From the IMG/VR virus record IMGVR_UViG_642979322_000022: 64,000 nucleotides of DNA; one strand, 5' to 3'. Each line of letters opens with the position of its first letter. The first letter of the stretch is position 1. Positions 48,001 to 51,000 of this stretch are shown here, one piece after another. The position numbers are program-made. Source of the DNA: a virus. Taxonomy: Duplodnaviria; Heunggongvirae; Uroviricota; Caudoviricetes.

Positions 48001-51000
48001 GTCTTCTTGGACATAAATCTGATTCAATGGCGGCGCATTATAGGGACAGTCGCGGGCGGGAGTGGGACAAAATTGAAATCGGATAATGATTTTATTTTGA
48101 CCAATAATGACTTACCAGATTTAACAACTTGATATTTAATAAGATTTTTGAACGAACAACTTCCATGTCAGAAGGAGGATAAAATCACAAAAACACATTA
48201 AAAATCATTATGTTATTTATACAATTGATTAAATGATAGACTGCAAAACGCGACAAAACACTACATTTAGAGTCACAATTAATCAATGAGTTAGATGTGA
48301 TTAGTGACCTGAGACAGAGCATTAGCGCAAGGTGATTTTTTGTCCTCTTGCGCTAATTTTTTGTCATCAAACATACAGCCAATCAGAAGAGCATAAAGCT
48401 GCCAAGCATTATATGTCTTAGTTTTATGCTCATTTTCATTAAAAAAATATATAATAAGACTAATATCAGTATAAAATATTTATAACACTTAGAGTAAAAA
48501 TGTAATCAGCTTATACAACCAACAATAATTTAAACTATAAAAAACAATAACAGAAACATTTATAATTTATTTTAAGTGTTCAAGCGATAAACTGGTAAAT
48601 TTAACAACTTAATTTTGAGATCTAAGTCACATCAATCAAGCATTCAAACAGTTATATATTAAAGCTGTCCACATCGGATATGTGACACTAATAGTATCAA
48701 TGGATTGATATTATTAATGGATATAAACATGTAATAAGGATTTATTATGAACATTCAACCGACCATACAATCTGGAATCACCTCACAAAACAATCAACAT
48801 CATCAAACAGAACAAATACCCTCTACACAAATACCGCAATCCGAATTACCTCTAGGATGCCAAGCTGGATTTGTTGTTAATATTCCAGATGATATACAGC
48901 AACATGCACCGGAATGCGGTGAAACAACAGCTCTACTGAGCTTGATAAAAGATAAAGGTCTGCTCTCAGGGCTAGACGAATATATAGCTCCTCACCTTGA
49001 AGAAGGATCCATAGGAAAAAAAACATTGGATATGTTTGGTTTATTCAATGTTACCCAAATGGCATTAGAGATACCTAGTTCCGTTTCAGGCATCTCTGGT
49101 AAATATGGTGTCCAGCTAAACATTGTAAAACCAGATATTCATCCTACATCAGGTAATTATTTTTTACAGATATTCCCTCTGCATGATGAAATAGGTTTTA
49201 ATTTTAAAGACCTTCCTGGCCCGTTAAAAAATGCATTAAGCAACAGTAATATATCAACCACTGCAGTGTCGACTATTGCATCGACTGGAACATCAGCCAC
49301 TACTTCGACGGTAACCACCGAGCCAAAAGACCCAATACCATGGTTTGGATTAACAGCTCAAGTGGTTCGTAATCATGGTGTAGAACTTCCTATAGTCAAA
49401 ACTGAAAATGGATGGAAGCTTGTTGGAGAAACACCACTTACTCCTGATGGGCCGAAAGCAAATTACACGGAGGAGTGGGTTATCAGACCGGGAGAAGCAG
49501 ATTTTAAATATGGTGCATCTCCATTACAGGCAACTCTAGGGCTGGAGTTTGGCGCACATTTCAAGTGGGATTTAGATAACCCTAATACTAAATATGCCGT
49601 TCTTACCAATGCTGCCGCAAATGCGCTTGGTGCTTTAGGGGGATTTGCAGTATCCAGATTTGCTAGTACAGATCCAATGTTAAGTCCTCATATCGGTGCA
49701 ATGGTTGGGCAAGCAGCAGGGCATGCCATACAGTATAATACCCCTGGATTAAAGCCAGACACTATTTTATGGTGGGCTGGTGCGACACTGGGGGCTGCCG
49801 ATTTAAACAAGGCCGAGTTTGAAGTAGCTAGATTCACTGACTATCCTCGTATATGGTGGCACGCAAGAGAAGGAGCTATTTTCCCCAATAAAGCAGATAT
49901 TGAACATGCCACAGGTGCTGATATACGCGCAATGGAAGAAGGTATCCCTGTTGGACAGCGGCATCCAAATCCAGAGGATGTGGTAATCGATATCGAAAGC
50001 AATGGCTTACCACATCATAATCCATCAAATCATGTTGATATCTTTGATATAATCCAAGAAACAAGAGTCTAAGCTTTAACTTGTTTATTTTAAAATAATA
50101 GCTGAAATGGATGGCAGCTATTATTAATAAGGATTAATATATTTTTTCTAAAATACCCCACAAAATAAACACATCATAAAAATTCTAAATACACACACCT
50201 AATCTCAAAAAAAACAAACTTACTATTTGACTTGGATTATGTTTTTAATCCAATATTTTCCGACAACATCTCCACAGAAAAATGCATTTACATAAAGACG
50301 CCTTCAAGTCATCTGAAACCTGCCAACCACAGACACCTTCTTATATTCTGGATGTCTGCGGCGTTTTTTTACAAATTACTGACAGCCAATACTCTCTCAG
50401 AGAAAAATATTTTAACTATCTTTTATAATGAAGTTTCCCTTGATAGGATCATAAACACATTTATCAGGACTTATAATCATTGATGCCGTTATTGGTTCTC
50501 GGGTCAGTGGATGATATGAGCCTTCACTAGCTAAACGAGAAAATGCATCAAAATCAAATAAGCAGCATACTGCCGAACTATCTGAATTTTTGACAAACAC
50601 TCCTTCTTCGGGTCTCTCTAGTGTAATTGGACACTGAATAGACTCTGGCGGGCACTGGAAATTTCCTGAACTAACAGGAAACTTACATTGAGATATTTTG
50701 TCCTGAATACTCTCTTGCGATTGTGCTTCACCTGAGTCCGAAAGCATACTGAGCATCCTATCGCGAAGAGCTTCAGGGCCGTTATTAAACCCATAAAGGA
50801 ATAACTCAGTAAGCAATCCCCCACTACTGCCGCTGGATAGAAAACGCCCATCGGTTTCATTAAATACAATGCTGACAGTCTCATTACCTAATGTAAACTC
50901 CCCTCGACCGCTAGATGCTACTTGAGCTCGAAGGACATTCAATCCATTAAAAATGAGCTTGATCTAATCTCCGAATTTAACGGCATTATAAAACTCCCTA

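What the first reader, a model, noticed from the sequence alone, without database searches (positions are those of the whole stretch)
48240..48372. ~120-bp repeat with hairpin and T-run at two places in the island
Two copies (44570-44690 and 48240-48372) share an inverted repeat ATTAGCGCAAG...CTTGC(A/G)CTAAT followed by TTTTTT and a TTTTTTAT-like segment reminiscent of a lambda-type att core. Copy 2 lies just beyond the int pseudogene where attL would be expected. Copy 1 ends exactly where the 5'-truncated IS256 transposase begins. They could be att-derived junction sequences, terminators or effector-gene regulatory modules.
Basis: partly seen in the sequence, partly recalled or inferred. Interest (0 to 1): 0.45.

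Follow-up and report, generated by a model that had tools for sequence, protein, structure and literature searches.

The report
Leftover lambda-type phage attachment sites
The two repeats are leftover phage lambda-type attachment-site arms with their integrase-gene terminator hairpin, marking where two different phages' ends were stacked into the E. coli O157 effector island; this is a known kind of element and useful mainly as a record of how the island was built.

Summary
The repeat is real: 44551-44692 and 48230-48371 are 77% identical over 142 nt, and both carry the hairpin and T-run. It is not an IS end and not an effector-specific module. Both copies align column for column with the distal P arm (Xis/Fis region, P2, H1, P1) plus the tI terminator/sib site of lambda and HK022 attP. 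Every landmark sits at lambda's exact spacing.

- **Copy 2** belongs to a complete, unrecombined attP (P'-core-P) behind its integrase pseudogene. An intact relative integrated in yfaT shares int, P' and the core CAACTTCCATGTCA, then diverges.
- **Copy 1** is an attR-type junction (P-O-B'). It has lambda's own 7-bp overlap and about 70 bp of the ybhB-side flank of the classical lambda attB. ISEc8 later split it (8-bp duplication); 249 genomes hold the uninterrupted form.

The same genome's genuine att-lambda prophage ends in the same order (tfa'-nleH-IS256'-tI-P-O-B').

The repeats therefore mark former right ends of two lambdoid phages stacked into the OI-71/ompW-prophage effector locus. Copy 2's hairpin remains terminator-grade; copy 1 is decaying. 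This is a known kind of element and of modest interest. The attL assignment and the "TTTTTTAT core" were wrong.

The parts
41965..42003 (+). Copy 1, chromosomal B' flank, left part. It is homologous to the ybhB-side flank of the classical lambda attB and includes the left copy of the ISEc8 target duplication CGAAAAAC (41996-42003).
   Evidence: Local alignment of the IS-free reconstruction to ybhB-adjacent attR loci L004 and L005 and to the same genome's native attR.
42004..44445 (+). ISEc8 (IS66 family), a secondary insertion into the B' flank. It is not part of the repeat.
   Evidence: Terminal inverted repeats at 42004-42025 and 44424-44445 (I10). Annotation. 8-bp target duplication. The IS-free junction is 100% identical over 341 nt in 249 genomes.
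44446..44477 (+). Copy 1, chromosomal B' flank, right part. It carries an 8-bp deletion relative to the E. coli ybhB-attB flank.
44478..44498 (+). Copy 1 core: B'-type site CAAATTA, 7-bp overlap GTATAAA (identical to lambda's TTTATAC) and C-side AAGCCGA.
   Evidence: Alignments to lambda attP and to attR loci. Site scan.
44499..44692 (+). Copy 1 P arm plus tI/sib. H2-like IHF site 44524-44536; Xis/Fis block from about 44551; P2 44591-44600; H1 44602-44614; P1 44622-44631; tI hairpin 44642-44678 with T-run to 44683. The arm is cut at about 44692 by a 5'-truncated IS256-family pseudogene.
   Evidence: Copy 1 has 11 private substitutions at 105 columns invariant in reference phages, including a stem mismatch.
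47086..48086 (+). int' is the integrase pseudogene belonging to copy 2's attP. It is 86.8% identical to an intact 356-aa int, lacks the first 68 nt, has four indels, and is joined at 47098/47099 to a tail-fibre C-terminal fragment.
48083..48156 (+). Copy 2 P' arm: P'3 48083-48093, P'2 48094-48103, P'1 48104-48113, and a perfect-consensus IHF site H' at 48122-48134.
   Evidence: Colinear with the annotated HK022 attP and with lambda 'int 4'. Site scan.
48157..48177 (+). Copy 2 core: C' CAACTTC, overlap CATGTCA, C GAAGGAG. The specificity is yfaT-type.
   Evidence: Three-way alignment. The attL of an intact relative prophage in yfaT (L009) shares sequence up to the core and then diverges. The attR of an Stx1a phage (L007) shares sequence from its annotated 15-bp insertion duplication onward.
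48178..48372 (+). Copy 2 P arm plus tI/sib. H2-like site 48203-48215; Xis/Fis block from about 48230; P2 48270-48279; H1 48281-48293; P1 48301-48310; tI hairpin 48321-48357 with T-run to 48362. It lies 385 nt upstream of the nleA start and is co-oriented with nleA.
   Evidence: Copy 2 has only 1 private substitution at 105 invariant columns.

Best explanation
Both copies are relics of the attachment-site P arm of lambda/HK022-family temperate phages. Each covers the Xis/Fis region, Int arm site P2, IHF site H1 and Int arm site P1. Each is followed by tI, the Rho-independent terminator of the int transcript, which in readthrough RNA forms the sib RNase III site that retroregulates int.

Copy 2 is the P arm of a complete but orphaned attP (P'-core-P) sitting behind its own, now dead, integrase gene. 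This is the vegetative phage order J-lom-stf-tfa-[nleG' nleA]-sib-attP-int.

Copy 1 is the P arm of an attR (P-O-B'). A lambda-specificity phage produced it when it integrated at the classical attB beside ybhB. The junction still carries about 70 bp of that chromosomal flank. It was later moved into this island, split by ISEc8 and truncated by an IS256-family remnant.

The two repeats therefore mark the former right-hand ends of two different lambdoid phages. Their effector cargo (nleG'/nleA and nleH/nleF) was stacked into the exchangeable effector locus of the ompW prophage.

Present-day activity is inferred, not shown. Copy 2's hairpin is still terminator-grade and should stop transcription coming out of int' before it reaches nleA. 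Copy 1 is decaying and probably inert. Neither is likely to recombine, because the adjacent integrase is a pseudogene and copy 1 has lost conserved positions.
For: The sequence shows the following.

(1) The stretch from int' through copy 2 matches HK022 int 3' end, the annotated 'attP site' and the annotated 'sib transcription processing site' in a single piece (78% over 280 nt). It also matches lambda 27528-27700, which holds the annotated Int sites 'int 1' and 'int 2', and a feature annotated 'terminator' in phage O276.

(2) Each copy is closer to a reference phage than to the other copy: copy 2 to HK022 85.5%, copy 1 to lambda 87%, copy 1 to copy 2 76%.

(3) All landmarks keep lambda's spacing from the C' site in both copies: H2 +46, P2 +113, H1 +124, P1 +144, hairpin +164.

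(4) The crossover point of copy 2 is fixed by natural attL and attR relatives.

(5) Copy 1's flank matches ybhB-adjacent chromosome in three genomes, while lambda attP diverges at exactly the core.

(6) ISEc8 has an 8-bp target duplication, and the IS-free junction exists 100% identical in 249 genomes of other serotypes.

(7) The genuine att-lambda prophage of the same genome ends tfa'-nleH1-1-IS256'-nleD-tI-P-O-B'-ybhB. The window's tfa'-nleH1-2-nleF-IS256'-tI-P-O-B' has a parallel order.

(8) Hairpin energies are -22.3 kcal/mol (copy 2), -20.0 (lambda tI) and -14.7 (copy 1).

(9) At 105 columns invariant in 8 reference phages, copy 1 has 11 private changes and copy 2 has 1.

Background on sib retroregulation of int comes from PMC5300877. 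The PPompW effector locus and chromosome-derived att sequences in prophages are described in PMC8112680.
Against: No transcript or recombination data were available, so termination at 48362 and the inactivity of the sites are inferences. The simple terminator scan did not flag either hairpin. The likely reason is that its loop limit is 3-8 nt, whereas these have a 15-nt apical region. Rfam has no family for it. The route by which the attR plus flank reached the ompW prophage is not resolved. It could be aberrant excision of the lambda-bio kind, integration into a captured attB followed by deletion, or inter-prophage recombination. The 8-bp-deleted flank variant was not found natively anywhere (chance hits only).
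Confidence: 0.9

Rival explanations
1. The repeat is a regulatory module for effector genes. For example, it could be a binding platform for IHF, H-NS or Ler, or an NRIR-like inverted repeat, that has been co-opted to control nleA and formerly another effector.
For: Copy 2 lies 385-517 nt upstream of nleA, on the same strand, in a 27%-GC intergenic region. It contains a perfect IHF consensus site. The H1-P1-tI part travels with nleA in phages BP-4795 and JLK-2012 at 95-96% identity. nleA is reported to be directly Ler-regulated (PMC3299786).
Against: Copy 1 has no effector gene downstream, only an IS256-family remnant followed by the 3' end of the convergent nleF. Homologues occur in 2067 of 5426 E. 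coli genomes. The sampled cases are a degraded prophage remnant and an engineered att-lambda insertion, both next to ybhB, which is not an effector context. Linkage to nleA is explained by nleA sitting in the phage b-region position immediately beyond sib/tI. The NRIR paper could not be read, so sequence identity with NRIR is untested.
Confidence: 0.12
2. The sites are still live recombination substrates. An Int supplied in trans could use copy 2's attP or copy 1's attR. One candidate is the intact lambda-att-type int/xis of the ybhC prophage in the same genome. This would drive prophage-in-prophage integration or large rearrangements.
For: Copy 2's attP is almost undamaged, with 1 change at 105 invariant columns and all P', H', core, H2, P2, H1 and P1 sites present. 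Copy 1 keeps lambda's exact 7-bp overlap. An intact int+xis of an att-lambda prophage exists in the same genome. Phage integration into att sequences inside this very effector locus is documented (PMC8112680).
Against: The cognate int next to copy 2 is a pseudogene. No intact yfaT-type int was seen in this window. Copy 1 has a 1-nt deletion next to the overlap and changes in P2, H1 and the flanking core sites. The arrangement is identical across O157, O26, O111, O103 and O145 genomes, with no sign of occupancy.
Confidence: 0.08
3. The repeat encodes a small RNA. This would be a transcript of about 130 nt starting inside the P arm and ending at the tI hairpin.
For: A promoter-like hexamer pair lies at 48198-48225 (+), about 135 nt upstream of the T-run. 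The 3' hairpin with its U-tract resembles an Hfq-type sRNA end.
Against: Promoter-like matches in the region are fewer than in shuffles (8 versus 11.9 expected). There is no Rfam match. Text searches of two papers on prophage-encoded sRNAs in pathogenic E. coli found no mention of nleA, attP or this locus.
Confidence: 0.05
4. The repeat is part of an insertion-sequence end.
For: Copy 1 is sandwiched between ISEc8 and an IS256-family fragment.
Against: ISEc8's inverted repeats end at 44445, 105 nt before the repeat, and the element has its own 8-bp target duplication. The IS256-family piece lacks its 5' end. Copy 2 has no IS nearby. The IS-free form exists in 249 genomes.
Confidence: 0.01

Closest known systems
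Phage lambda attP P arm with the tI terminator / sib retroregulator (J02459 about 27530-27740)
   Same: Same order and identical spacing of the core, H2, Xis/Fis block, P2, H1, P1 and tI hairpin. Copy 1 is 87% identical over the repeat and has lambda's exact 7-bp overlap TTTATAC. The hairpin sequence is almost identical.
   Different: Copy 1 is recombined (P-O-B', i.e. attR), sits far from the lambda attB locus, is split by ISEc8, is truncated 3' of the T-run, and carries 11 changes at otherwise invariant positions, including a stem mismatch.
Phage HK022 attP and 'sib transcription processing site' (X51962)
   Same: int' 3' end, P', core, P and sib are colinear with HK022 over 280 nt (78%). 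Copy 2 is 85.5% identical over the repeat. The P'1 variant AGTCATTAT and the C-side core TCCTT are shared with HK022.
   Different: The overlap region differs (CATGTCA versus HK022 TTCACCT). Intact relatives integrate in yfaT. The integrase here is a pseudogene.
attR of the CP-933K/Sp3-like prophage at ybhC/ybhB in the same O157:H7 genome
   Same: Same P-O-B' junction type and a parallel cargo order tfa'-nleH-...-IS256'-...-tI-P-O-B'.
   Different: Only 81% identical over 233 nt. The native site has the full flank, without the 8-bp deletion, and continues into ybhB-bioA. The relic keeps only about 70 bp of flank and then abuts a serT-type att relic.
Chromosome-derived attB sequences inside prophage effector loci (attB-in-PP_1 to _3; Nakamura et al. 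2021, PMC8112680)
   Same: Same prophage (the ompW prophage effector locus) and the same theme of short host-chromosome att-flank DNA embedded among effector genes. attB-in-PP_1 is present at 36361-36381.
   Different: Those are unoccupied attB-like sites derived from yecE, ykgJ/ecpE and ompW. The present elements are a recombined attR from att-lambda and an unrecombined attP. A text search of that paper found no occurrence of ybhC or yfaT, and its attP passages concern other phages.

Membership tests
Lambda/HK022-family attachment site (attP / attR) | Colinear sequence homology to experimentally defined, annotated attP sites | tested here: met
   One blastn piece covers HK022 int 3' end, 'attP site' and 'sib' (78% over 280 nt). 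Lambda 27528-27700 with 'int 1' and 'int 2' is also matched.
Lambda/HK022-family attachment site (attP / attR) | Arm-type Int sites (P1, P2; P'1-3 for attP) and IHF sites (H1, H2, H') at canonical spacing | tested here: met
   Spacing from the C' site is identical to lambda in both copies (+46, +113, +124, +144). P'1-3 and H' are present only in copy 2, as expected for attP versus attR. P2 carries mismatches in both copies (1 in copy 1, 2 in copy 2).
Lambda/HK022-family attachment site (attP / attR) | A core with a 7-bp overlap at which homology to attL/attR/attB partners switches | tested here: met
   Copy 2: attL of a yfaT prophage and attR of an Stx1a phage switch at 48157-48177. Copy 1: lambda attP and ybhB-flank sequences switch at 44478-44498.
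Lambda/HK022-family attachment site (attP / attR) | A functional cognate integrase | tested here: not met
   int' lacks 68 nt at its 5' end and has four indels. Copy 1 has no adjacent int. An att-lambda-type int exists elsewhere in the genome. The sites are therefore relics, not a working module.
Lambda/HK022-family attachment site (attP / attR) | Int-mediated recombination activity | not testable with these tools
   This needs in vivo or in vitro recombination assays.
tI terminator / sib retroregulatory site of int | A G+C-rich stem-loop followed by a U-tract, just beyond P1 on the int-sense strand | tested here: met
   Hairpin at +164 from C' in all three. Energies are -22.3 (copy 2), -14.7 (copy 1) and -20.0 kcal/mol (lambda), with T6 following.
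tI terminator / sib retroregulatory site of int | An extended stem in readthrough RNA (the RNase III substrate) | tested here: inconclusive
   The 111-nt fold of copy 2 extends the stem as in lambda. Copy 1 does not form it cleanly. Cleavage itself is not testable here.
tI terminator / sib retroregulatory site of int | Acts in cis on a functional int mRNA | tested here: not met
   The upstream int is a pseudogene (copy 2) or absent (copy 1).
nle regulatory inverted repeat (NRIR) / effector promoter module | Located upstream of a subset of nle genes and required for their expression | tested here: not met
   Only nleA has a copy upstream. Copy 1 precedes an IS remnant. Homologues are widespread outside effector loci. 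The NRIR sequence itself could not be compared because the paper is not held.
Insertion-sequence terminal repeat | Lies at the end of an IS and is bounded by a target duplication | tested here: not met
   The ISEc8 ends and target duplication lie outside the repeat. The IS-free form is present in 249 genomes.
attB-in-prophage (Nakamura 2021) | An unoccupied, chromosome-derived attB (B-O-B') inside a prophage that other phages use | tested here: not met
   The flank is chromosome-derived, but the site is P-O-B' (copy 1) or P'-O-P (copy 2). No B arm of att-lambda is found in the window.

The most novel reading that the evidence does not exclude
Copy 1 may be a direct molecular fossil of how host-chromosome att-flank DNA gets into prophage effector loci. 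An att-lambda-integrated, Sp3/CP-933K-like phage would have excised imprecisely, in the lambda-bio manner. It would have carried its attR plus about 70 bp of the ybhB-side chromosome, and then recombined into the ompW prophage. Together with the adjacent serT-type relic, the yfaT-type attP and the published yecE-, ykgJ- and ompW-derived sequences, this would make the effector locus a serial stack of captured phage termini. It would also address the capture mechanism that Nakamura et al. 2021 left open. A bolder extension is that the nearly intact attP of copy 2 can still be used by a yfaT-type Int supplied in trans.
Probability: 0.3. Interest if true: 0.5.

Novelty: new member of a known kind. 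Interest (0 to 1): 0.3.

Why it matters
The element type (lambda-family attP/attR arm with the tI/sib hairpin) is textbook, so the finding is not a new mechanism. Its value is historical. The two relics, which carry no annotation in the RefSeq records examined, show that the OI-71/ompW-prophage effector locus was assembled from the right-hand ends of at least two further lambdoid phages with different integration specificities (yfaT and att-lambda). This locus is shared 100% identically by O157, O26, O103, O111 and O145 strains. One of the relics still carries host DNA from its former integration site. That gives a concrete, testable handle on how effector cassettes and chromosome-derived att sequences accumulate in EHEC/EPEC prophages. 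On the practical side, the hairpin upstream of nleA is a probable transcriptional insulator, and anyone designing nleA promoter constructs should be aware of it.

Tried and rejected
1. IS-end hypothesis: rejected.
2. NRIR identity: the primary paper (Garcia-Angulo 2012) and the nleA promoter paper (Schwidder 2011) are not held. Only a review sentence was available, so no sequence comparison could be made.
3. Rfam scan of 41500-51500 at E<=1: no match.
4. The simple terminator scan did not list the hairpins, probably because of its loop-length limit. Promoter-like sites were not enriched.
5. Scan of 185,579 species-representative genomes for the 8-bp-deleted B' flank variant (TCTTTTTGTTTCGCTCAA): 66 chance hits in unrelated taxa and no enterobacterium. 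The donor lineage remains unknown, and the single genome-contig scan is spent.
6. Search for the att-lambda B arm in the window, to test a 'captured attB then prophage-in-prophage' model: none within 3 mismatches.
7. sRNA literature (EcOnc and Pas sRNAs): text searches found no mention of nleA, attP or this locus.
8. Search for an intact version of the phage that owned copy 2. The best relatives are an intact int at yfaT (84.5%, L009) and a 66-kb 'plasmid' in O55:H7 DEC5A that carries the same int'-attP-nleA relic. No intact int linked to nleA was found.
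Full report
**1. Observation**

The repeat is real. The repeat finder gives one two-copy family, 44551-44692 and 48230-48371 (142 nt, 77% identical, no gaps). The inverted repeat ATTAGCGCAAG-N15-CTTGC(A/G)CTAAT occurs exactly twice in the 64-kb window, at 44642-44678 and 48321-48357. None of 100 shuffles produced a match. A T6 run follows each copy. As RNA, the hairpins fold at -22.3 kcal/mol (copy 2, z -6.1) and -14.7 kcal/mol (copy 1, z -3.5). Copy 1 has a C.A mismatch in the stem.

**2. Context**

The window is the OI-71 / ompW-prophage effector locus of E. 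coli O157:H7. Reading left to right on the + strand, the annotation of an identical genome (strain TR01) gives this order:
- nleG, espM1 and other remnants
- ISEc8 (42004-44445)
- copy 1
- a 5'-truncated IS256-family pseudogene
- nleF and nleH1-2 (both on the - strand)
- a tail-fibre C-terminal fragment
- an integrase pseudogene (47086-48086)
- copy 2
- nleA (48747-50072)
- an nleG-family pseudogene
- tail-fibre genes, lom and J

The literature describes this locus as the exchangeable effector locus of the lambda-like prophage at ompW (PMC8112680; PMC8565820).

**3. What the repeat is**

A sensitive DNA search of phage records gave the answer. The stretch from the int' stop through copy 2 matches phage HK022 in one piece (78% over 280 nt). 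That piece covers the int 3' end, the annotated 'attP site' and the annotated 'sib transcription processing site'. Copy 2 also matches lambda 27528-27700, where the Int binding sites 'int 1' and 'int 2' (P1 and P2) are annotated. It further matches a feature annotated 'terminator' in phage O276.

In a four-way alignment both copies line up column for column with the distal P arm and the tI hairpin of lambda and HK022. Each copy is closer to a reference phage than to the other copy:

| Pair | Identity over the repeat |
|---|---|
| copy 2 vs HK022 | 85.5% |
| copy 1 vs lambda | 87% |
| copy 1 vs copy 2 | 76% |
| HK022 vs lambda | 89% |

A consensus scan finds every landmark at exactly lambda's distance from the C' core site in both copies: H2 +46, P2 +113, H1 +124, P1 +144 and hairpin +164.

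The 142-nt repeat is therefore the conserved block Xis/Fis region, P2, H1, P1 and tI/sib. This block is shared by phages with different core specificities. The core-proximal part of the arm is only 45-59% identical between them, which explains where the repeat starts.

It is established knowledge that tI terminates the pI-initiated int transcript. It is also established that the extended hairpin in readthrough RNA is the sib RNase III site, which retroregulates int (PMC5300877).

**4. Copy 2 is part of an unrecombined attP**

Between the int' stop (48086) and the repeat lie P'3, P'2 and P'1 (48083-48113), a perfect IHF site H' (48122-48134), and a core CAACTTC-CATGTCA-GAAGGAG (48157-48177).

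An intact relative prophage in strain 2013C-4081 has xis and a 356-aa int next to yfaT/yfaA/gyrA. It shares int, P' and ...CAACTTCCATGTCA with the window and then diverges completely into chromosome. That is an attL. Conversely, Stx1a-converting prophage records share the P arm and hairpin, starting from their annotated 15-bp 'duplication due to insertion' at the prophage's right end. That is an attR.

The window has both arms around one core, so it is P'-O-P. This is not attL, which by definition lacks the P arm. The gene order J-lom-stf-tfa-[nleG' nleA]-sib-attP-int is lambda's vegetative order. nleA sits where lambda has its b-region genes, co-oriented with int and just beyond tI.

int' is 86.8% identical to the intact int. 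It lacks the first 68 nt, has four indels, and is fused at 47098/47099 to a tail-fibre C-terminal fragment.

**5. Copy 1 is an attR-type junction from the classical lambda attB**

To the left of its P arm, copy 1 has CAAATTA-GTATAAA-AAGCCGA (44478-44498). The 7-bp overlap is identical to lambda's TTTATAC.

Further left, lambda attP diverges. The window instead follows the chromosomal DNA that lies between ybhB and the lambda core. This was seen in a CFT073 derivative with an att-lambda insertion (its annotated cargo genes suggest an engineered vector), in a natural strain with a degraded prophage, and in the same O157 genome. The flank homology runs across ISEc8, covering 41965-42003 plus 44446-44477, and carries an 8-bp deletion relative to E. 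coli.

ISEc8 is flanked by the 8-bp duplication CGAAAAAC. The reconstructed IS-free sequence (341 nt) is present 100% identical and in one piece in 249 genomes, including O26, O103, O111 and O145 strains. In O26 RM10386 the whole composite locus is the same. The ISEc8 insertion is therefore a later event.

**6. Origin of copy 1's segment**

The same O157 genome contains the genuine att-lambda prophage. Its layout is ybhC | int xis ... J lom stf tfa nleB2 nleC ... tfa' nleH1-1 IS256' nleD, then tI-P-O-B' | ybhB bioA. The order of its right end parallels the window's tfa'-nleH1-2-nleF-IS256'-tI-P-O-B'.

The nleH regions are 86-91% identical and the att regions 81% identical. This supports an inference that the segment ending in copy 1 descends from the right end of a prophage integrated at att-lambda, taken together with about 70 bp of the neighbouring chromosome.

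How it moved is not resolved. The candidates are lambda-bio-like aberrant excision, integration into a captured attB followed by deletion, or inter-prophage recombination. No att-lambda B arm was found in the window.

**7. State of preservation**

Eight phage or prophage references share 105 invariant columns across the repeat. At those columns copy 1 has 11 private substitutions. They fall in P2, H1, the hairpin stem and loop, and the base after the T-run. Copy 2 has one, in P2. The references themselves show 0-3 in leave-one-out tests, apart from the divergent Stx1a phage with 9.

Copy 1 is therefore decaying, while copy 2 is nearly indistinguishable from sites in living phages. In phage BP-4795 only H1-P1-tI remains upstream of nleA.

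**8. How it works now (inferred, not shown)**

Copy 2's hairpin plus U-tract should terminate + strand transcription leaving int' 385 nt before the nleA start codon. It would thereby insulate nleA, which has its own Ler-dependent control (PMC3299786). The surrounding intergenic region is 27% GC and holds IHF consensus sites. A contribution to H-NS, Ler or IHF architecture upstream of nleA therefore cannot be excluded. Copy 1 probably has no role. Recombination is unlikely without a cognate integrase.

**9. Rivals**

- An effector-specific regulatory module is disfavoured. Copy 1 precedes no effector, and homologues occur in 2067 of 5426 E. coli genomes.
- An IS end is excluded.
- An sRNA has no support.
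- Live recombination substrates remain possible but unsupported.

**10. Comparison and novelty**

The elements pass the sequence-level membership tests for lambda/HK022-family att sites and tI/sib. They fail the tests that need a functional integrase, so they are relic members of a known family.

The RefSeq records examined carry no annotation under them. A text search of the paper that analysed att sequences in this locus found no mention of ybhC or yfaT, and its attP passages concern other phages.

The finding is ordinary in kind. It is informative about how the effector locus was built, and it bears on the capture mechanism that Nakamura et al. 2021 left open.

**11. Verdict**

- Observation: confirmed.
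- Interpretation: partly supported. The att-derived and terminator ideas are right. attL, the T-run as core, and the regulatory module are not supported.
- Novelty: new member of a known kind.
- Interest: 0.3.

Noticed in passing
window 41854-41958 (+): About 7 bp left of the att-lambda B' flank lies a degenerate copy of the 3' ~45 nt of tRNA-Ser serT (about 80% to the hyaA-serT-yccA locus). It is followed by about 60 nt matching the prophage-side arm next to serT in strain YC21-F17 (84% over 121 nt). ARAGORN calls no tRNA there. It looks like a third att relic, from a serT-integrating element, stacked against copy 1.
   Followed up: partly
window 36361-36381 (-): There is an exact copy of the 21-bp yecE-derived attB-in-PP_1 (GTCATGCAGTTAAAGTGGCGG) described by Nakamura et al. 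2021. It is apparently unoccupied and lies at the outer end of the effector locus.
   Followed up: partly
window 34758-36059: An intact 'Arm DNA-binding domain' integrase (34758-35888, +) abuts an ompW 3' fragment (35934-36059). A second lambdoid prophage (window 1 to about 35900) therefore sits in tandem with, or inside, the ompW prophage that carries the effector locus. In O26 RM10386 the same ompW fragment is followed directly by chromosomal yciE/yciF.
   Followed up: no
window 46959-47098 and 51032-51170; inverted repeat at 46987-47011 and 51057-51084: The 3' end of the tail-fibre C-terminal gene and its downstream palindrome AAAACCGGAGCCGGACTCCGGTTTT are duplicated (92-93% identical). The two copies lie just upstream of nleH1-2 and of the nleG-family pseudogene. 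This palindrome might be the published NRIR element. That could not be checked because the paper is not held.
   Followed up: no
window 47098/47099: This is the novel joint between the tail-fibre C-terminal fragment and the 5'-truncated integrase pseudogene. Microhomology is limited, consistent with an illegitimate deletion that removed almost a whole phage genome.
   Followed up: partly
window 41996-42003 and 44446-44453: ISEc8 has the 8-bp target duplication CGAAAAAC. The insertion is absent from 249 genomes of other serotypes (O26, O103, O111, O145 among those listed) that otherwise carry the identical junction, so it could serve as a lineage marker.
   Followed up: yes
window 51600-51930 (- strand gene 51370-52683): The tail-fibre N-terminal gene contains a long imperfect collagen-like (Gly-X-Y) repeat array. 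It appears as the families of 9-nt-phased direct repeats D1 and D3.
   Followed up: no
window 48087-48746: The int'-nleA intergenic region is 27% G+C against 51% for the window. Such composition is typical of H-NS/Ler-targeted DNA.
   Followed up: no
L083 (NZ_CP038397.1, pDEC5A-4, 1-5994): A 66-kb circular record, called a plasmid, in O55:H7 DEC5A carries the same int'-attP-nleA relic followed by a ykgJ fragment (attB-in-PP_2-like). It may be a circularised or episomal prophage.
   Followed up: no
L084/L085 (NZ_CP033605.1 895404-934487): The att-lambda prophage of the same genome has an effector locus with its own tail-fibre-assembly fragment, IS256-family fragment and ykgJ fragment. The same building blocks therefore recur in different prophage effector loci.
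   Followed up: partly
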